Shown here in pieces: positions 31,076 to 45,777 of a stretch of DNA of 64,000 nucleotides. The position numbers were made by a program, and so were the translations under genes. The notes under the pieces were generated by a model that saw only the letters and a program-made list of their open reading frames with translations, was not told where the DNA came from and ran no database searches. Each line of letters opens with the position of its first letter. The first letter of the stretch is position 1. Source of the stretch: Candidatus Heimdallarchaeota archaeon (GTDB taxonomy: Archaea > Asgardarchaeota > Heimdallarchaeia > JABLTI01); assembly GCA_019056785.1 (NCBI GenBank), contig DXJV01000001.1, positions 1-64,000 on the forward strand, written 5' to 3'.

Positions 31076-32068
31076 TTATTTGAAAGTTTTTTGCAAACGT
31101 TTAACTTCTTCTTCATTTAAAATCGTCTCTGGAGCAAGGATGATCTTGTAAAGACATTCTCGACAAATATCGGTACCAATTTTTCGTCCATAGATTTGTG
31201 AAAGAATCAGTGCGTCTTCATACCTTTTTACGCTGCACTTAATTCCGCGTGTTTCAATTATTTTCTTTGTCACCGGGCAGCGAAGATATTTCTCATTATT
31301 GATAACAATACAGAAGTCAGGGCAAATATCTATTCCAACTGTTTCGAATGATTCTTTTTGAAGTTCTGGGATAGCTTTAAGAACCATCTGGTTTACTTCC
31401 TCATGAAACCCAAAAATTAATCTTTGTGTTTCGATAAACTCATTTTGATTCAAGCAAAAAGTTGCGCCATCAGGCATTTCTTTTAACATCGGACAGGGAT
31501 AGTGAAAAGTATATCTGTCTTCTTTTTTTCGTGGAATTTCAAATTTGTAAGTTTCGCCTATTGTTTCTTCCAGGATCCAATCATAAAGTTCCTTCAACCC
31601 CTCAAGAGTCACAGCACTACTACTAATCACCTTCCAATGGCGATTTATTACGCGTTTTAGTCCTAATTTTGAGATGATAACATTCGTTTTCATGACTTTT
31701 TTTAAATCCGACTTGTGGCGAAGGACACAGATGGGCGTTAGTTTTTTCTTGCTGTTTTTCAAGATGCGTTGGAATTCATTCTGCACTTCTTTAAATCGTT
31801 TCACATCTGCACCATCGATAACAAAGACAATCGCATCGGCAAAAGGCAATAAAGGGATGATCTCTTCCCGGAATTTCTCCTGTCCACCCAGATCAAAAAT
31901 GCGAAAATTCATATCTTTTACTTTAAAGGTACTCAGTGAAATGCCTAAAGTAGGAGCCGTTTTATAGACATCACCTTTGGTGAAGATATTTAAGATGGTT
32001 GTTTTTCCGGCATTGGAAAGTCCGCAAAAAAGAATTACCTGCGATTTTTCCTTTCCTACTAAGGACAT
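31076..32068 (-). CDS. Arf-family small GTPase fused to a Cys-rich C-terminal domain
   Basis: GLSNAGKTT, PTLG, DLGGQ, FVIDG, HKSD, SSA; about 160-aa C-terminal extension with 8 Cys. Confidence 0.88.
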   Translation of the reverse strand: MSLVGKEKSQVILFCGLSNAGKTTILNIFTKGDVYKTAPTLGISLSTFKVKDMNFRIFDLGGQEKFREEIIPLLPFADAIVFVIDGADVKRFKEVQNEFQRILKNSKKKLTPICVLRHKSDLKKVMKTNVIISKLGLKRVINRHWKVISSSAVTLEGLKELYDWILEETIGETYKFEIPRKKEDRYTFHYPCPMLKEMPDGATFCLNQNEFIETQRLIFGFHEEVNQMVLKAIPELQKESFETVGIDICPDFCIVINNEKYLRCPVTKKIIETRGIKCSVKRYEDALILSQIYGRKIGTDICRECLYKIILAPETILNEEEVKRLQKTFK

Positions 32069-40630: not shown

Positions 40631-41242
40631 TTATTTAATATCAATTTGTGCTTTACAAATTGGACAATGTTGCTTGGAAGAAAGCCATTCGATTAAATGG
40701 TCGTCATGGAAGAGAGTATAGCAATTGGGGCACTGGAGGACGAGGTCATCTTTTGTTAAGATTAGTTTGCAAATGCCACAAGTCTGTTCTTCCAATGTTC
40801 CTCTGTAAATTAACGGGGCAATTTTCTGCCAATCGACTTCGTAGGTTTCAGCTTGTTCCTGCAAGCGTATTTGTGAATTCTCTTCAACCTGTTTTGGTAT
40901 CTTTAATGGTGAGTCATCAATTGCTTCTGAGGATTGATACGGTGCTGCTAATTTGGTAGAAGAAACTCTCTCTCCGGATGGCGTTTGTTTCTTTAAAGCA
41001 CTGAATGCTCCTGTAAAAGTCGCTATTGTGGTAAATATTACGACTATGATAAATACAGACATGCCAATGCCACCAACTATCACAAATGGTAAATACGTTT
41101 TAAAATCCATTAAGCGATTAAAATCTCCGCCAATTAATCCAACTCTAATTACCAATGCAATTCCTGATAAGATAACAAGCCCAAAACTGATAAAACCAAT
41201 AATTAACGGAATTGAAAAACGTACAGTTTTTTTTGTCTTCAA
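40631..41242 (-). CDS. Two-TM membrane protein with C-terminal RING-type zinc finger (putative E3 ligase)
   Basis: CGIC..CPNC..H..H..EW..CPIC. Confidence 0.82.
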   Translation of the reverse strand: MKTKKTVRFSIPLIIGFISFGLVILSGIALVIRVGLIGGDFNRLMDFKTYLPFVIVGGIGMSVFIIVVIFTTIATFTGAFSALKKQTPSGERVSSTKLAAPYQSSEAIDDSPLKIPKQVEENSQIRLQEQAETYEVDWQKIAPLIYRGTLEEQTCGICKLILTKDDLVLQCPNCYTLFHDDHLIEWLSSKQHCPICKAQIDIK

Positions 41243-41388: not shown

Positions 41389-42291
41389 TTATTCGCTAAC
41401 TTCTTGTACCTGAATGGCTGCTTTTTTAATATCATGAGAAGAACTGAAGGAATAAATAATATGCATGCCTTCTCGTTCTTTCATGGTTCGTACAATCCAG
41501 GCTTTTCCGCGAATTCTTTTCTTTAACCAATCTGGTAAGATCCAACCGAGATAGCCAAAGATCAGCCGTAAAATTGTTGCCGCTAATCGCAAGGCTTGTA
41601 AGAAAAGCATTGCTTTTGAATTCGAATAAATACTTGGGAGGTAAAACAGCACGAGTACAACGGTACTTCCTATCAGAGAAACAATACTTATGTCAATGTA
41701 CAATATTCCTCTTTTTGGCACCGGTTCGGTTATTTTCCTATCAATAATAACAACATTGTAGCTAATTCTTAGCAAGACAAAGATAAGTAATGGAATAAAC
41801 AATACGAGTGAAAGAGCTGCTACCGGCGCAAAAATCTCAATGTTCGTATTTGGCAATAAGAAGAGGTCACTTGTATTAATATACAAGTCCTCTCCAAGTA
41901 ATAACTCTGAAAACATGGTAGTAGTAACTACTGCGATTGTTTCACTGAGGAACACACCCATGAGTGATTTGACAAAGTCATTGTCCTTGAGAATATGTCG
42001 TGTGGAAAAGAAATAGAAGAATAAGATACTTAAGGCATACAAGTTCAAGAATAGTATTTGGAAAATTCCTGAGAGATTTTTTGAACTAATATTAAAAGCC
42101 TCAAACCAATAGGATAGTGTATTTGCACCCTCTCCTAAACCGAGTAAAGTAAAAGTGAACAATAAAAATGCTGTACCAAGAGTCTTTTTCTTGATAAAAG
42201 CATAAAGCAAGAATAATGCATAACTAATTGCGAAAATCCCAAGAAACAAAGAGGTAATGAGATAAAACCATGTTTGACCTGTAAGTGCCAT
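41389..42291 (-). CDS. Seven-TM membrane protein of unknown function
   Basis: About 7 hydrophobic helices by eye; ends YLGWILPDWLKKR followed by a soluble tail. Confidence 0.75.
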   Translation of the reverse strand: MALTGQTWFYLITSLFLGIFAISYALFLLYAFIKKKTLGTAFLLFTFTLLGLGEGANTLSYWFEAFNISSKNLSGIFQILFLNLYALSILFFYFFSTRHILKDNDFVKSLMGVFLSETIAVVTTTMFSELLLGEDLYINTSDLFLLPNTNIEIFAPVAALSLVLFIPLLIFVLLRISYNVVIIDRKITEPVPKRGILYIDISIVSLIGSTVVLVLFYLPSIYSNSKAMLFLQALRLAATILRLIFGYLGWILPDWLKKRIRGKAWIVRTMKEREGMHIIYSFSSSHDIKKAAIQVQEVSE

Positions 42292-42295
42292 TTTT

Positions 42296-42829
42296 TCATT
42301 CTCCTAAAATTTTTATGAACCAAGACATTGATTCAAAAATACCTTCACCTGTTTTAGCTGAAGTTTCAAAGACTGCCCACGTGATTTTTAAATTTGGGTC
42401 CATTAAACCAAAATCGCCGACAAATTATACACGTTCCATCCTATCGGGCAGATTAATTTTACTAAGAATTATCAACAATACCGGAATTTCAGGATTGATT
42501 TGGTTTTTAATTATGTTGTGGAAAATTTCCTTTGTCTCTTCAAACCAGAGATAATCTGTGCTATCTACAACATAAATAAGTGCATTTGTTTTTTCATTGA
42601 TATCTGTTCATAGAGGCCGAAAATCTTCTCCTCCCAAATCAAAAATATGGATGTCTAAATTTGGAAAGCTAATTGTTTTACGATTCAATCCCATTGTTGG
42701 TGCTGTTTCTTTGAATTCTTCTTCGATTAAATAGTTTAAATAAGTAGTTTTCACTGCTTTGTCCAAGCCGCAAATTGTTAGATTAACTGGTTTCGACTTG
42801 CGTCTGAAGAGCCTGCGGAGAAATACCAT
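42296..42829 (-). pseudogene. Pseudogenised Arf-family small GTPase (178 codons, two in-frame stops)
   Basis: The frame continues past TGA 42608-42610 (RPL*, normally RPLW) and TAA 42425-42427 to ..ALIYVVDST..ETSAKTGEGIFESMSWF..; the P-loop reads GLDKAVKTT, G3 DLGGE and G4 SKIN. Confidence 0.88.
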
Positions 42830-42856
42830 TTGTCTCTTGCCCCCTCCTCTTACTTG

Positions 42857-43357
42857 CTATCTCCAAATGTCGTCTTTAACAGACTCGAGAAATTCTTCAC
42901 CTCGATCTTTCTTTTTCTTTTTTGAATCGTCATCAAAGTTGAATTCTAAGGTGACAACAGAACTGATTTTAATCTTAACTTTCCCTTTTTTGAGACCTTC
43001 CAACATACTTGACAGAATCTTAGAGAAGGTATTGGTATCGCTCATGTTGTATCTTTGAAGTTCCATGATCGTGGAGAAGAATTTCCGAACAGTATCACGG
43101 TCATAATTTGGATTGTCGTAGATAGCCACTAAGGAGGCAATGTTCTGCCGTTCATCACTGGGAACCGAGAAAATAAAGCACTCTATTTGATAGCCTTCTA
43201 CTGTACTAGAGGCAAAATCACCTGCTTTGGCACTAAGGGGCATACTCTTCAAGACAATTTCATTCAAAATAATATTGGGTATGGTATCAGGGACAACTGT
43301 GACAAGTTCAAGCCCAGACTTTCCAATGCTCGTTAAACAAAGGTTTGTTGGTTTCAA
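42857..43357 (-). CDS. Longin/uDENN-like small protein
   Basis: Strand/helix pattern (..IVLKSMP..ECFIF.V....RQNIASLVAIY..) resembles uDENN/longin; sits directly upstream of an Arf gene. Confidence 0.5.
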   Translation of the reverse strand: MKPTNLCLTSIGKSGLELVTVVPDTIPNIILNEIVLKSMPLSAKAGDFASSTVEGYQIECFIFSVPSDERQNIASLVAIYDNPNYDRDTVRKFFSTIMELQRYNMSDTNTFSKILSSMLEGLKKGKVKIKISSVVTLEFNFDDDSKKKKKDRGEEFLESVKDDIWR

Positions 43358-43641: not shown

Positions 43642-45777
43642 ATGGTCAAACAAAAACAAACAATCCTTTTGGTAAGTCTAATAGTCATTTCAAGTTTTTT
43701 TTTGTGTTTTAGTATACAGAGAAATTCCAGTGGGGTATCTGCTTTTGACTATCCTGTTACTCGCAGCCAGGAAGACCTTACAATTGAGTTCACCACAAAC
43801 CAATCTGGCATTGGAAAAGACAGTGGTGCTTTAGGAACCTTGGTCCTAAGAAATAATGGTGCAAATGCCATTGGGAACATCGCTATTGACTTTGGTCTTA
43901 ATGGGAAATACGTAGAAATAACTACTAGTTATGCTCAGCATCAAGAGCTAAGCCTGTTAAACCCCGGCTATTCTGAAACATTCAATATCGAAGTTGGATT
44001 AAACAAGTCAGAATTTACCGGTGAGGAACCATTAAACATGGTAGATCTTTGTCTCGTCTTTGATAGTAGCGGTTCAATGGGTGAGGAAATCGAGGCTGTA
44101 AAAAATGCGTTCTTAGACATTGTAAGCAATTTAACTGAACAGATCGATTCTCTCCAAATTGGTGCTATTGCCTATGGTTGGGCGAAATACTCGGAATATC
44201 CACAAGAAAGTCCAAACAATTACGTTCCCTTTACCGAAGACTTTGATTGGGTGAATGATTTTATTAATAGCCTTTATCCTGCAGGAGGGACCGAACCGTG
44301 GGGAGACGCTCTCTACCTGGCAAATAGCTGGAATTGGCGCCCGGATGCAAACAAACTTCTCATAATTGTTGGAGATGAGGATTGCGACCCGGGTAAAATT
44401 GTTGGGGCCGGTTCTTCCGGTTCTTATTATAATGGTTCACAATTGGTGGAGGTCGTTGAAAACCTGAAGGCAAAAGAGGTCAAGATTAATTCAGTTCGTA
44501 CAGGAAATGAAGCAATTTTCGTTAATCAATTCACATGGATAGCTGAAGCCACAGAAGGTATAAGTGTAGATCTTGAGGAGCTTCAAAATGGCGATCCACC
44601 GATCACTCTGCCTGAGCTAATTGAATCATGGACCTTGGAACTCAAGCGAGAATACTATATCTATCTTTATGCTAATATTACTTGGACAGAATTTGATGTG
44701 GGAGGAGATATTACTTATTCCACCCAAAAAGGACTTTATTTGTTATTTGATGTTGCTCCACCTTTTATTAGCGTTTCAACATTAGTAATAGCAAATCCTG
44801 ATTCCACATTTACATTTCAAATCTATGCAACAGTCAAAGATTTATCAGGCATCGCTACGACCAGTATTTACTGGACCTTTGATGACCTAGACGGTGGGTC
44901 CGAACCTCTCTGGCATTTTGAGATTTTAAGTAATATTTCCAATCATGTCTATTTGAAAGAATTAACAGGGTTAGCTCTCGGGGAAAACCTTTCGTTTTAT
45001 TTTGTTGCATTTGATTCATTATACAATCGCGGAGAAAGCCAGATATACAACTGCACAGTGGAAATTCAAAAAAATGTCTTTGGGACAACAACAACAGTCT
45101 TCTTTCCGGCTAATAATACAATGGTCGCCCTCTATTTCGACTTAGCGAAAAAGTCGTATGGGTATTTGAGACTTGATAATTTTATTGGTAGCTATTCACT
45201 TTTGCCAAATTCAAACTTCACTCTTGAAACCAAATTTGTCAGTGAAGATAAGCAAATCGTTCGTGTGATTAAAACGGGTTTAGAGGATTTCGCAGTAATC
45301 ACCTTTGTTGGCAATACAACAACTGACCCAACAATAATCTTCTGGAACTTCGATATTTTCTTAATAGAGGAAGAATTAAATGGCTATAGTTCCTATTTCG
45401 ATGCTAAAAGAACAAACCTTTTGATTCGTGTTGAAATTAGCAATGAAAATCAACTCTGCTTGGTTAGAATTGATCCAGAGCTCATAGCAGTTGTCAAAGT
45501 CTTCGATGAAAATTGGAATTACATCGGAAAAGCCAGTTTCACAGAAGCGTTAACACTAGTAGAAGGGACTTATTATCTTTGGGCGTATAATGTCTTACGA
45601 GATGGATCCTTTAAATTCTATTTCGGGAATGATCCCCCCCTAGAAACAGATAACTATTATAACCAGGTGCCAATTCCATTCCCGATACTTCTTCTTATCG
45701 TTATTCTCACACTAAGTGGGTTTTCCCTCTTTAATCGAAGAAAGAAGCACCGGGGAAAATATAAACAAAGGATTTAG
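43642..45777 (+). CDS. Membrane-anchored vWA (MIDAS) / Ig-like surface protein
   Basis: VDLCLVFDSSGSM (DxSxS), GGTEPWGDAL, WRPDANKLLIIVGDE; signal peptide; C-terminal TM plus basic tail. Confidence 0.88.
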   Translation: MVKQKQTILLVSLIVISSFFLCFSIQRNSSGVSAFDYPVTRSQEDLTIEFTTNQSGIGKDSGALGTLVLRNNGANAIGNIAIDFGLNGKYVEITTSYAQHQELSLLNPGYSETFNIEVGLNKSEFTGEEPLNMVDLCLVFDSSGSMGEEIEAVKNAFLDIVSNLTEQIDSLQIGAIAYGWAKYSEYPQESPNNYVPFTEDFDWVNDFINSLYPAGGTEPWGDALYLANSWNWRPDANKLLIIVGDEDCDPGKIVGAGSSGSYYNGSQLVEVVENLKAKEVKINSVRTGNEAIFVNQFTWIAEATEGISVDLEELQNGDPPITLPELIESWTLELKREYYIYLYANITWTEFDVGGDITYSTQKGLYLLFDVAPPFISVSTLVIANPDSTFTFQIYATVKDLSGIATTSIYWTFDDLDGGSEPLWHFEILSNISNHVYLKELTGLALGENLSFYFVAFDSLYNRGESQIYNCTVEIQKNVFGTTTTVFFPANNTMVALYFDLAKKSYGYLRLDNFIGSYSLLPNSNFTLETKFVSEDKQIVRVIKTGLEDFAVITFVGNTTTDPTIIFWNFDIFLIEEELNGYSSYFDAKRTNLLIRVEISNENQLCLVRIDPELIAVVKVFDENWNYIGKASFTEALTLVEGTYYLWAYNVLRDGSFKFYFGNDPPLETDNYYNQVPIPFPILLLIVILTLSGFSLFNRRKKHRGKYKQRI

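What the first reader, a model, noticed from the sequence alone, without database searches (positions are those of the whole stretch)
41389..43357. Longin/uDENN-like - Arf GTPase - 7TM operon: a GPCR-style module
Seen: three tightly packed minus-strand genes (gaps of 27 and 4 nt; strong SD before the Arf gene) encoding a longin-like protein, an Arf-family GTPase and a protein with about 7 TM helices and a cytoplasmic tail. Established: longin/DENN domains act as GEF platforms for small GTPases, and G-alpha belongs to the same GTPase lineage as Arf. Inference: a prokaryotic receptor-GTPase-regulator cassette. The GTPase is broken in this strain, so intact versions should be sought in relatives.
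Basis: partly seen in the sequence, partly recalled or inferred. Interest (0 to 1): 0.75.

Follow-up and report, generated by a model that had tools for sequence, protein, structure and literature searches.

The report
Asgard longin–Arf–7TM cassette, GTPase broken
A Heimdall-group Asgard archaeon carries a tight three-gene unit, copied many times in its lineage, that joins an NPRL2-like longin protein, its own Arf-type GTPase and a seven-helix membrane protein; this gives matched candidate partners for archaeal Arf switches, though in this copy the GTPase gene has recently died.

Summary
Three minus-strand genes lie 27 and 4 nt apart: a 166-aa protein, an Arf-family gene and a 300-aa membrane protein. 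The small protein has no Pfam match but folds as a longin domain closest to NPRL2, the catalytic GATOR1 subunit. The membrane protein has seven helices, N-out/C-in, and its nearest folds are GPCRs and bacterial 7TM sensor modules; sequence homology to either is not shown.

The linkage is not chance. I found 23 three-gene and 9 two-gene (longin–7TM) cassettes in relatives, with up to 5–6 three-gene copies per genome. The three families co-diverge, and the cassette Arfs of this genome form one clade.

The window's Arf is a real, recent pseudogene. It has two in-frame stops, a P-loop Gly→Val change, a deleted catalytic Gln and a lost NKxD Asp. A 92–95% identical relative has it intact.

Best reading: a membrane-docked small-GTPase switch module. 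The receptor role, GAP versus GEF, and direct binding are inferred; co-folding gave only weak support.

I found no published description. The nearest in print are the Asgard roadblock–Rab–DENN operon and the actinobacterial conservons. This scan has noted the same cassette before in other genomes.

The parts
42857..43357 (-). Longin-fold protein, 166 aa (P0002), of an Asgard-only family with no Pfam model. NPRL2-like by fold.
   Evidence: ORF. AF2 pLDDT 80.5 with longin topology. Foldseek best match is NPRL2/NPRL3 at 1e-6. VIA gives Z 15.4, rmsd 2.8 over 142 aa, to NPRL2 chains. No member has a consistent Pfam hit.
43148..43150 (-). Codon of Arg70, invariant in the longin family, in the beta4-beta5 loop. 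Candidate arginine finger.
   Evidence: Invariant column R70 in alignment A1. The loop position comes from the secondary structure. Equivalence to NPRL2 Arg78 was not tested residue by residue.
42841..42849 (-). Shine-Dalgarno-like GAGGAGGGG in the 27-nt spacer before the Arf ATG.
   Evidence: Read directly from the sequence.
42296..42829 (-). Arf-family (ArfR) GTPase pseudogene. The frame is kept, with two nonsense codons and damaged G1, G3 and G4 motifs.
   Evidence: Pfam Arf 3.8e-34 when read through. Compared base by base with the intact 177-aa orthologue P0063.
42752..42754 (-). P-loop codon GTG (Val) where all 20 cassette Arfs have Gly (GxxxxGKT).
   Evidence: G26 is invariant in A4.
42608..42610 (-). 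In-frame TGA at the invariant Trp after switch II (TGG in the relative). Just upstream, a 3-nt deletion removes the catalytic Gln of DxxGQ.
   Evidence: The allele is present in contigs of runs X1 and X3.
42425..42427 (-). In-frame TAA (CAA Gln in the relative).
   Evidence: Present in contigs of X1-X3, whereas X4 reads G at 42427, which gives CAA.
41389..42291 (-). Seven-helix membrane protein, 300 aa (P0003), N-out/C-in, stand-alone, of a small Asgard-only family.
   Evidence: No Pfam match in any of 27 members. Only 87 clusters were found among 1.84 billion representatives.
41977..42015 (-). Conserved motif at the cytoplasmic end of helix 3 (Y93, F95, R98 and D103 invariant).
41491..41556 (-). 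Most conserved stretch of the family, at the helix 7 end and the following basic amphipathic helix (GYLGWILPDWLKKRIRGKAWIV).
   Evidence: The same motif type recurs in distant ~250-aa relatives.

Best explanation
The three genes encode one co-evolving, membrane-docked small-GTPase switch module. The seven-helix protein sits in the cell membrane with a variable outer and intramembrane part and a strongly conserved cytoplasmic face. That face consists of the helix-3 end, the loop between helices 5 and 6, and the helix-7 end with the basic helix that follows. I propose that this face docks the longin protein, probably as a dimer, together with the dedicated Arf-type GTPase. A state change in the membrane protein would then shift the GTPase between GDP and GTP forms. 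The NPRL2-like longin would act on the nucleotide cycle, most likely as a GTPase-activating protein using invariant Arg70. The GTP form would hold onto the membrane through its conserved N-terminal amphipathic helix (MSFLxxLF) and signal to unknown effectors. The cassette family evolves by birth and death, that is, by duplication, divergence and loss. The window's copy is one in which the GTPase gene has recently been inactivated while both partner genes are still intact. It may be an intermediate towards the Arf-less two-gene (longin-7TM) cassettes seen in relatives. Shown: gene order, folds, conservation pattern, co-divergence and pseudogene status. Inferred: physical binding, sensing, GAP activity and the direction of signal flow.
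For: Linkage: 23 three-gene cassettes in 10 genomes and 9 two-gene cassettes in 7 genomes, always in the order longin-(Arf)-7TM. No recurrent fourth gene was found. The RING and VWA neighbours are absent from the genome's other cassettes.
Co-divergence: the distance matrices of the three families correlate, with Mantel r of 0.72-0.86 and 0 of 2000 permutations as high. Nearest neighbours agree in 16-17 of 23 cassettes.
The five cassette Arfs of this genome form one clade (99/99 support) among 33 Arf-family genes.
The cassette Arfs keep all G motifs and an invariant N-terminal M1/F3/F8 helix.
The longin fold is closest to NPRL2 (Z 15.4, rmsd 2.8, 142 aa), well above generic longins at Z 8-9.7. 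R70 is invariant.
The 7TM cytoplasmic side has 18 of 96 columns at 80% identity or more, against 1 of 107 on the outer side (Mann-Whitney p 2e-15).
The nearest 7TM folds are signalling 7TM proteins. These are GPCRs at Z 13-15 and HisKA_7TM / 7TMR-DISM sensor modules at TM 0.58-0.66.
Co-folding of the three chains with the 7TM as partner gave weak support. The score was 0.38 against a best control of 0.14; that control had the Arf replaced. The mark was reached by 58 of 80 solved complexes and 2 of 110 mismatches, but passes at or under 0.60 are more often wrong than right unless the guess was likely beforehand.
Pseudogene status: the intact orthologue lies in the same synteny, the broken allele is present in three runs, and Arf dN/dS of 0.08 against the relative implies a recent death.
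Against: No experiment or expression data exist; no RNA run was listed.
The co-fold support is weak, and no interface was reported.
The 7TM fold scores lie in the range the tool says helical bundles reach by arrangement alone.
No member is fused to an output domain or to the GTPase, so there is no fusion ('Rosetta stone') evidence for binding.
The longin lacks the Gly-Pro motif proposed to mark GAP-type longins. It has an invariant Gly15-Leu16 there instead (PMC12290439).
The longin does not match Pfam NPR2 by sequence, and the NPR2 model finds nothing anywhere in this genome.
Stable Arf-less cassettes show that the longin-7TM pair can persist without an adjacent GTPase. The GTPase may therefore be an accessory and not the core output.
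The outer loops are short, so any ligand site would have to lie within the helix bundle.
Confidence: 0.5

Rival explanations
1. Same module, but the 7TM protein is the regulated target or docking site and not the sensor. It could be a transporter, a channel or a membrane-remodelling site. The Arf and longin would control its activity or location, as Arf/Sar GTPases act on membrane machinery in eukaryotes.
For: The conserved cytoplasmic face fits an effector docking site as well as a receptor output face. The outer loops are short. The Arf has a membrane-inserting N-terminal helix typical of Arfs that act on membranes (PMC11914678). The longin-7TM pair persists without Arf in 9 loci.
Against: The nearest folds are signalling 7TM proteins, not transporters. 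The family shows no conserved polar or metal-binding set inside the bundle apart from E54, R175 and R235. Fast divergence of the outer half with many paralogues per genome is more typical of sensor families.
Confidence: 0.25
2. The longin is an exchange factor (GEF) or a plain scaffold, as in DENN, Mon1-Ccz1 and TRAPP longins, and not a GAP.
For: Most longin platforms are GEFs (PMC10933270; PMC12290439). uDENN modules are among the matches (DENND10 Z 10.2; DENND1A/B Z 9.1-9.6). The GP motif proposed for GAP longins is absent. There is only one longin gene, whereas the known longin GAPs are heterodimers of two different longin proteins.
Against: The best and clearly separated structural match is the Arg-finger subunit NPRL2. 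An invariant Arg sits in a loop at a similar distance along the chain. The cassette has no DENN or d-DENN domains.
Confidence: 0.3
3. The in-frame stops are read through or recoded, so the window's Arf is still made and functional.
For: The frame is preserved across both stops, both indels are multiples of three, and TGA sits at a Trp position.
Against: Three further invariant catalytic positions are destroyed: P-loop Gly to Val, the catalytic Gln deleted, and the NKxD Asp changed to Asn. The Arf gene itself ends in TGA, and long neighbouring ORFs read normally under table 11. The two stops are different codons. Another cassette of the same genome (C49) carries TGA, TAG and TAA stops.
Confidence: 0.03
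4. The adjacency has no functional meaning, and the genes are unrelated neighbours.
For: None beyond the lack of experimental data.
Against: Thirty-two loci keep the same order and orientation with gaps of 4-30 nt. The families co-diverge across paralogues, and the flanks differ.
Confidence: 0.02

Closest known systems
Eukaryotic longin-domain GAP complexes: GATOR1 (NPRL2-NPRL3-DEPDC5) on RagA/B, FLCN-FNIP on RagC/D, and C9orf72-SMCR8 on ARF1
   Same: The longin fold is closest to NPRL2. A longin protein is paired with a small GTPase at a membrane. C9orf72-SMCR8 shows that a longin GAP can act on an Arf. PMC12290439 reports Heimdall longins of this type and asks which GTPase they serve; this cassette names one candidate pair.
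   Different: This is a single 166-aa longin without DENN or NPRL2 C-terminal domains. It has no GP motif (Gly-Leu instead) and no sequence-level match to Pfam NPR2. The partner is an Arf-type GTPase, not a Rag-type one, and the longin is encoded in an operon with a 7TM protein.
LYCHOS/GPR155 with GATOR1 (PMC11525196; bioRxiv 10.1101/2024.11.21.624772)
   Same: A membrane protein with a GPCR-like seven-helix domain is described as binding the NPRL2-containing complex to control a small GTPase.
   Different: LYCHOS is a 17-helix hybrid of a transporter and a GPCR domain on lysosomes. No homology was tested here; this is an analogy only, taken from the abstracts.
GPCR with heterotrimeric G protein (G-alpha)
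   Same: Shared features are seven helices with N-out/C-in topology, a beta-hairpin between helices 4 and 5, a basic helix after helix 7, and conserved residues at the cytoplasmic ends of helices 3 and 7. The outer half is variable, and the top 50 solved-structure matches are all GPCRs. That G-alpha and Arf belong to one GTPase lineage is from my own knowledge and was not tested here.
   Different: There is no sequence match to any 7tm Pfam family and no DRY or NPxxY motifs as such. The GTPase is a plain Arf without a helical insert or beta-gamma partners. Fold scores are within the range of generic helical bundles.
Bacterial 7TM sensor modules (HisKA_7TM PF16927, 7TMR-DISM_7TM PF07695)
   Same: These are the nearest predicted structures in the ESM Atlas (TM 0.58-0.66 over 210-250 residues), and they are prokaryotic seven-helix input modules.
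   Different: Those modules are fused to kinase, GGDEF or EAL outputs. This family is always stand-alone and has no Pfam match.
Actinobacterial G protein systems / conservons (CvnA-D) (PMC13621833, PMC12236503) and MglA-MglB
   Same: These are prokaryotic operons that join a membrane sensor, a roadblock-superfamily regulator and a small Ras-like GTPase, and they have long been likened to GPCR systems.
   Different: The sensor there is histidine-kinase-like, not 7TM. The regulator is roadblock, not longin. The GTPase is MglA/Ras-like, not Arf. A DUF742 GEF-like component is present there and absent here.
Asgard roadblock (LAMTOR1-like) - Rab-like GTPase - DENN operon and NPRL2-like longins (Liu et al., bioRxiv 10.1101/2020.10.19.343400)
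   Same: This is a conserved Asgard operon linking a roadblock/longin-superfamily regulator with a small GTPase. NPRL2-like longin domains are noted there as abundant in Asgards.
   Different: The gene families differ, and no membrane protein is part of that operon. The longin-Arf-7TM cassette is not mentioned in the preprint's main text.
SR-beta with the SRX domain of SR-alpha
   Same: An Arf-like GTPase bound by a longin-fold domain at a membrane. The window Arf gives a weak SRPRB Pfam hit, and an SRP-SR entry (7obq) gives a weak match to the longin model.
   Different: The matches are distant. SR-beta carries its own membrane anchor and serves protein targeting. I found no evidence of orthology.

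Membership tests
Arf family GTPase (Pfam PF00025) | Profile match above the curated cut-off | tested here: met
   118 bits against a cut-off of 22.3 when read through; orthologues also match.
Arf family GTPase (Pfam PF00025) | Intact G1 (GxxxxGKT), G3 (DxxGQ) and G4 (NKxD) motifs and an open frame | tested here: not met
   The window copy has Gly26Val, the Gln deleted, Asp changed to Asn, and TGA and TAA stops. All 20 cassette Arfs aligned in A4 are open; they keep G1 and G3 and have [N/H/S]KxD at G4. Two further copies left out of A4, G000:C49 and G011:C212, also carry in-frame stops.
Arf family GTPase (Pfam PF00025) | N-terminal amphipathic helix | tested here: met
   MxFLxxLF with M1, F3 and F8 invariant. 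There is no Gly2, so no myristoylation site.
Longin domain fold | beta-beta-alpha-beta-beta-beta-alpha-alpha topology and similarity to solved longins | tested here: met
   secondary structure. Foldseek gives 17 matches at E <= 1e-3, all longin-containing chains. VIA Z is 8-15 to longins.
GAP-type longins (NPRL2 / FLCN / SMCR8) | Gly-Pro motif at the start of strand 2 (PMC12290439) | tested here: not met
   An invariant Gly15-Leu16-Glu17 lies at that place.
GAP-type longins (NPRL2 / FLCN / SMCR8) | Catalytic arginine finger in the longin domain | tested here: inconclusive
   Invariant Arg70 lies in the beta4-beta5 loop. The aligned ranges (model 1-143 against NPRL2 5-161) are compatible with NPRL2 Arg78. 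No residue-level superposition was available.
GAP-type longins (NPRL2 / FLCN / SMCR8) | Sequence membership (Pfam NPR2 PF06218 or Folliculin) | tested here: not met
   No hit for the protein or any of the 25 family members. PF06218 finds nothing in the genome. One Atlas neighbour cluster carries NPR2 in 19% of its members, at a score of 0.87; this is a lead only.
GAP-type longins (NPRL2 / FLCN / SMCR8) | Heterodimer of two longin subunits; measured GAP activity | not testable with these tools
   Only one longin gene lies in each cassette. Activity needs biochemistry.
G protein-coupled receptors | Seven helices, N-terminus outside and C-terminus inside | tested here: met
   The positive-inside count was read from the translation. 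All three N-x-S/T sequons lie in the predicted outer loops.
G protein-coupled receptors | Profile match to a 7tm family or signature motifs (DRY, NPxxY, CWxP) | tested here: not met
   No 7tm Pfam hit in 27 members at E <= 5. The motifs present are only positional analogues (R98 at the helix-3 end, P253 at the helix-7 end).
G protein-coupled receptors | Fold similarity clearly above generic helical bundles | tested here: inconclusive
   VIA Z is 15.4 down to 13.2, and all top 50 matches are GPCRs. The tool states that helical models reach about Z 14 by arrangement. Foldseek E values are 2e-3 to 2e-2, with microbial rhodopsins at the same level.
Bacterial 7TM sensor modules (HisKA_7TM / 7TMR-DISM) | Profile match, and fusion to a cytoplasmic output domain | tested here: not met
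   No Pfam hit. All 87 related clusters are stand-alone and at most 384 aa. The resemblance is at fold level only.
Conservon / actinobacterial G protein system | Histidine-kinase-like sensor, roadblock protein, DUF742 protein and Ras-like GTPase | tested here: not met
   Of those four, only a small GTPase is present, and it is Arf-type, not Ras/MglA-like. The sensor is a 7TM protein without a kinase domain, the regulator is longin-fold, and there is no DUF742 gene.

The most novel reading that the evidence does not exclude
The cassette is a working archaeal receptor-GTPase system. A seven-helix membrane protein would directly set the nucleotide state of an Arf-family GTPase, and an NPRL2-type longin would switch it off. 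That would make it a living relative or forerunner of both GPCR-G-alpha signalling and the lysosomal GATOR1-Rag nutrient switch.
Probability: 0.12. Interest if true: 0.95.

Novelty: new variant of a known kind. Interest (0 to 1): 0.7.

Why it matters
Asgard archaea encode dozens of Arf, Rab and Rag-like GTPases and many longin and roadblock proteins, but who works with whom is unknown. Tran et al. 2024 (PMC10933270) state that in the Lokiarchaeon MK-D1 GTPase genes are generally not in operons with their regulators, which makes matching difficult. Dey et al. 2016 (PMC4917890) listed operon analysis of these GTPases as an open question. The 2025 longin-GAP survey (PMC12290439) asks which GTPase the Heimdall GAP-like longins serve.

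This cassette gives a matched triplet of one longin, one dedicated Arf clade and one membrane protein. It comes with natural replicates in the form of many diverged paralogues, natural knock-outs such as this window's dead Arf, and Arf-less variants. That makes the partner question directly testable in vitro.

If the membrane protein proves to control the GTPase, it would be the first prokaryotic 7TM-to-Arf signalling system. That would bear on the origin of G-protein and nutrient-sensing pathways in eukaryotes.

Tried and rejected
- Sequence searches gave nothing for the two unknown proteins. Pfam at E <= 5 found no consistent family for any member. A sub-threshold KGK hit in 8 of 25 longins lies over the KGKVKIKISS stretch, and I judged it spurious.
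- A profile search of PDB sequences with A1 found only nanobodies, at E > 0.7.
- PF06218 NPR2 was not found in the genome.
- hhalign of the longin family against the 147-aa protein upstream of a distant 7TM relative gave probability 0.1. The idea that the distant ~250-aa 7TM family is always paired with the same longin family is therefore not supported. Two of four such loci examined have a small upstream ORF; two have none.
- No fused forms were found. There were no longer proteins related to the longin (weak evidence) and no 7TM relative above 384 aa.
- The sigma-70 promoter and intrinsic-terminator scan was at chance level and is not suited to archaea.
- No RNA holder was listed for the stretch, so co-transcription could not be examined.
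- The search for related loci by peptide patterns returned only 5 loci; the genome searches were more useful.
- I considered whether the disabling changes are enriched at invariant Arf positions. Four of about 11 changes fall on 30 invariant columns out of 177. By my own rough binomial estimate, not a tool result, the chance probability is about 0.1, so I make no claim of selection for inactivation.
- The RING and VWA neighbours are not part of the unit, as they are absent from the other cassettes.
Full report
THE OBSERVATION

The window is contig C60 of a 2.87-Mb, 82.5%-complete genome with 43 Arf-family matches. Sources that hold the proteins label them Candidatus Heimdallarchaeota.

At the stated coordinates there are three minus-strand ORFs:
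- a 166-aa protein at 42857-43357;
- an Arf-family gene at 42296-42829;
- a 300-aa hydrophobic protein at 41389-42291.

The spacers are 27 and 4 nt, and GAGGAGGGG precedes the Arf ATG. The TTG start of the first gene is native, because the close relative has it too.

THE ARF GENE IS A PSEUDOGENE

The whole gene stays in one frame but contains TGA (42608-42610) and TAA (42425-42427). Read through, it matches Pfam Arf at 3.8e-34.

A relative, GCA_021498085.1 (locus L025), has the same neighbourhood and an intact 177-aa Arf. Its longin is 92% identical to the window's at protein level and its 7TM protein 95%.

The base-by-base comparison shows these changes in the window copy:
- GGA to GTG in the P-loop (Gly26Val);
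- a 3-nt deletion that removes the catalytic Gln of DxxGQ;
- TGG to TGA at the invariant Trp;
- a 3-nt insertion;
- GAT to AAT in the (S/N)KxD motif;
- CAA to TAA.

In an alignment of 20 cassette Arfs, Gly26, Gln68, Trp75 and Asp126 are invariant.

Contigs of three sediment runs with three different study codes carry the broken allele without change at the stops. One of those runs may be the source sample. A vent run carries the intact-type allele. The break is therefore real and not an assembly error.

Arf dN/dS against the relative is 0.08, compared with 0.23 for the longin and 0.22 for the 7TM protein. Inactivation is recent, and the two partner genes look selected. Recoding is very unlikely given the destroyed catalytic residues and the normal use of TGA as the Arf gene's own stop.

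THE SMALL PROTEIN

It has no Pfam match above any cut-off; only a sub-threshold KGK hit appears. No Pfam family is consistent across its 25 relatives, and it has no sequence match in the PDB.

AlphaFold2 on a 25-row alignment gives pLDDT 80.5 and the longin order of strands and helices. A beta-hairpin and a C-terminal helix follow the longin core.

- Foldseek puts NPRL2/NPRL3 of GATOR1 first (1e-6). Yeast Npr2/3, a Lokiarchaeal roadblock-longin protein, DENND10, DENND1A, Lst4, FLCN-FNIP and SMCR8-C9orf72 follow.
- The second look gives NPRL2 Z 15.4 (rmsd 2.8 over 142 residues). That compares with 11.9 for the Loki longin, 10.5 for FLCN, 10.2 for DENND10 and 8-9.7 for SNARE, adaptor and TRAPP longins.

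It is therefore a longin, nearest to the GAP-type subunit and not to uDENN.

Arg70 is invariant and lies in the beta4-beta5 loop. The Gly-Pro motif proposed as the mark of GAP longins (PMC12290439) is replaced by an invariant Gly-Leu. Pfam NPR2 matches neither this protein family nor anything else in the genome.

THE MEMBRANE PROTEIN

None of its 27 relatives gives a consistent Pfam hit; each family reported at E <= 5 matches at most 3 members, and none is a 7tm family.

AlphaFold2 (pLDDT 83.9) gives seven long helices, a beta-hairpin between helices 4 and 5, and a long helix 7 that continues into a basic amphipathic helix. Averaged hydropathy agrees. Lys and Arg cluster in loops 1-2, 3-4 and 5-6 and in the tail, and the three N-x-S/T sequons lie in the other loops. 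The topology is therefore N-out, C-in.

- Foldseek against the PDB gives only weak matches (E 2e-3 to 2e-2). Most are GPCRs, with microbial rhodopsins at the same level.
- The exhaustive aligner lists only GPCRs in its top 50, at Z 15.4-13.2 and rmsd 3.7-4.7 over 220-240 residues. It warns that helical bundles reach about Z 14 by arrangement alone.
- Among predicted structures, the nearest are bacterial and archaeal 7TM input modules fused to kinases or cyclic-di-GMP enzymes (HisKA_7TM, 7TMR-DISM; TM 0.58-0.66). A secretin-type GPCR cluster scores 0.61.

The fold is thus that of signalling seven-helix proteins, but homology to any one of them is not shown.

A profile search of 1.84 billion representatives finds only 87 clusters. 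All are stand-alone and at most 384 aa.

THE LINKAGE

Genome searches with each protein, tblastn over the fetched loci and further regions give:
- 23 three-gene cassettes in 10 genomes. There are five in this genome (C60, C11, C14, C88, C49) and six in G010.
- 9 two-gene cassettes in 7 genomes, in which the longin gene is followed directly by the 7TM gene.

The full-length family is confined to two families of one class, in 7 of 10 and about 10 of 29 sampled genomes. It was not found in 21 genomes of a third family.

The three families co-diverge. Mantel r is 0.78, 0.72 and 0.86, with none of 2000 permutations as high, and nearest neighbours agree in 16-17 of 23 cassettes. Kinship produces such a correlation only if cassettes are inherited and duplicated as units, which is the point being made.

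The five cassette Arfs of this genome form one clade with 99/99 support among 33 Arf-family genes. No fourth gene recurs in the flanks, and the RING and VWA neighbours of this copy are not found at the other cassettes.

Copies die often. Cassette C49 of this genome has in-frame stops in all three genes. G011:C212 has a stop at the P-loop lysine. G005:C55 has two TAA codons in its 7TM gene.

THE CONSERVED FACE

Across 32 cassettes, 18 of 96 columns on the cytoplasmic side of the 7TM protein are at least 80% conserved, against 1 of 107 on the outer side (p 2e-15). The conserved residues are:
- the helix-3 end (Y93, F95, R98, D103);
- Gly195 in the loop between helices 5 and 6;
- the helix-7 end with the following helix (Y247, G249, W250, P253, W265).

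The 7TM protein also diverges fastest of the three. A constant inner face and a variable outer half are what one expects of a family of sensors that share one kind of cytoplasmic partner. A regulated target would also show a constant inner face.

CO-FOLDING

The three chains were folded together with the 7TM protein as the scored partner. The score was 0.38 against a best control of 0.14, and that control had the Arf replaced. Both partner-replaced controls scored 0.00.

The verdict was weak support. The mark was reached by 58 of 80 solved complexes and 2 of 110 mismatches, but passes at or under 0.60 are more often wrong than right unless the guess was likely beforehand. No interface was reported. 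The runs agreed in at least 77% of contacts, and the partner pLDDT was at least 79.

COMPARISON WITH WHAT IS KNOWN

- The two Asgard Arf papers I could search, a 2024 preprint (bioRxiv 10.1101/2024.02.28.582541) and Zhu et al. 2025 (PMC11914678), contain no neighbourhood analysis.
- Tran et al. 2024 say that GTPase genes of MK-D1 are generally not in operons with regulators.
- Liu et al. (2020 preprint) describe a roadblock-Rab-like-DENN operon and abundant NPRL2-like longins, but not this cassette.
- The longin-GAP survey (PMC12290439) leaves the client GTPase of Heimdall longins open.
- Functionally, the nearest prokaryotic analogue is the actinobacterial conservon.
- The nearest eukaryotic analogues are the longin GAP complexes, LYCHOS-GATOR1 and GPCR-G-alpha.

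I therefore class it as a new variant of a known kind of system: a membrane sensor plus a roadblock/longin regulator plus a small GTPase.

Earlier notes of this scan describe the same cassette in other genomes and in another contig of this genome. One earlier report was later priced at 23 in 100 for direct GTPase-membrane protein coupling. My own estimate for the bold reading is lower than that.

WHAT IS SPECIFIC TO THIS WINDOW

This is a decaying copy. The GTPase is dead, while the longin and the 7TM protein are intact. Together with the stable Arf-less cassettes in relatives, this suggests that the longin-7TM pair is the persistent core and that the Arf can be lost. That is an inference, not a demonstrated order of events.

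Noticed in passing
G000:C49:46133-48083 (locus L042): A second cassette of the same genome is degraded throughout. The longin is split with a TGA, the Arf has TAG and TAA, and the 7TM gene has a TGA. Two of this genome's five cassettes are therefore dead, which points to birth-and-death turnover.
   Followed up: partly
L017:2021-2557 (G011:C212): The cassette Arf has a stop codon exactly at the P-loop lysine (GLDKAG*TT), and the adjacent 7TM gene also carries a stop.
   Followed up: no
window 31076-32068 (-): There is a second Arf-family gene in the window. It is 330 aa, with an N-terminal Arf domain and intact motifs fused to a Cys-rich C-terminal region of about 150 aa. It is not part of a cassette.
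   Followed up: no
G000:C18:41310-43305 (locus L048): A 138-aa small ORF is followed by two tandem ~250-270-aa seven-helix proteins. These are distant relatives of the cassette 7TM family and share the Y-x-G-Y/W-x-M-P-x-W/F-basic motif at the helix-7 end. No GTPase gene is adjacent. A similar pair in G016 has a 147-aa upstream protein with a weak Fuz_longin_1 hit (E 0.035).
   Followed up: partly
window 40631-41242 (-) and 43642-45777 (+): A membrane-anchored RING-finger protein (203 aa) lies downstream of the cassette, and a VWA-domain surface protein (711 aa) is divergently transcribed upstream. The close relative keeps both in synteny, but they do not accompany the other cassettes.
   Followed up: partly
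window 42349: The window reads C where contigs of all three runs that carry the broken allele read A. This is a single-base difference inside the Arf pseudogene.
   Followed up: no
L005, L006, L007, L009, L021, L032, L033, L034, L037: These are two-gene cassettes (longin then 7TM, with gaps of about 30-160 nt) and no Arf gene within the fetched flanks. They form at least two orthologous groups across genomes.
   Followed up: partly
7TM family C-terminus (window 41389-41410): The 7TM family ends in a conserved Ser-rich stretch and an acidic E-V/I-S-D/E-P terminus in most close relatives. It was modelled with low confidence and its role is unknown.
   Followed up: no
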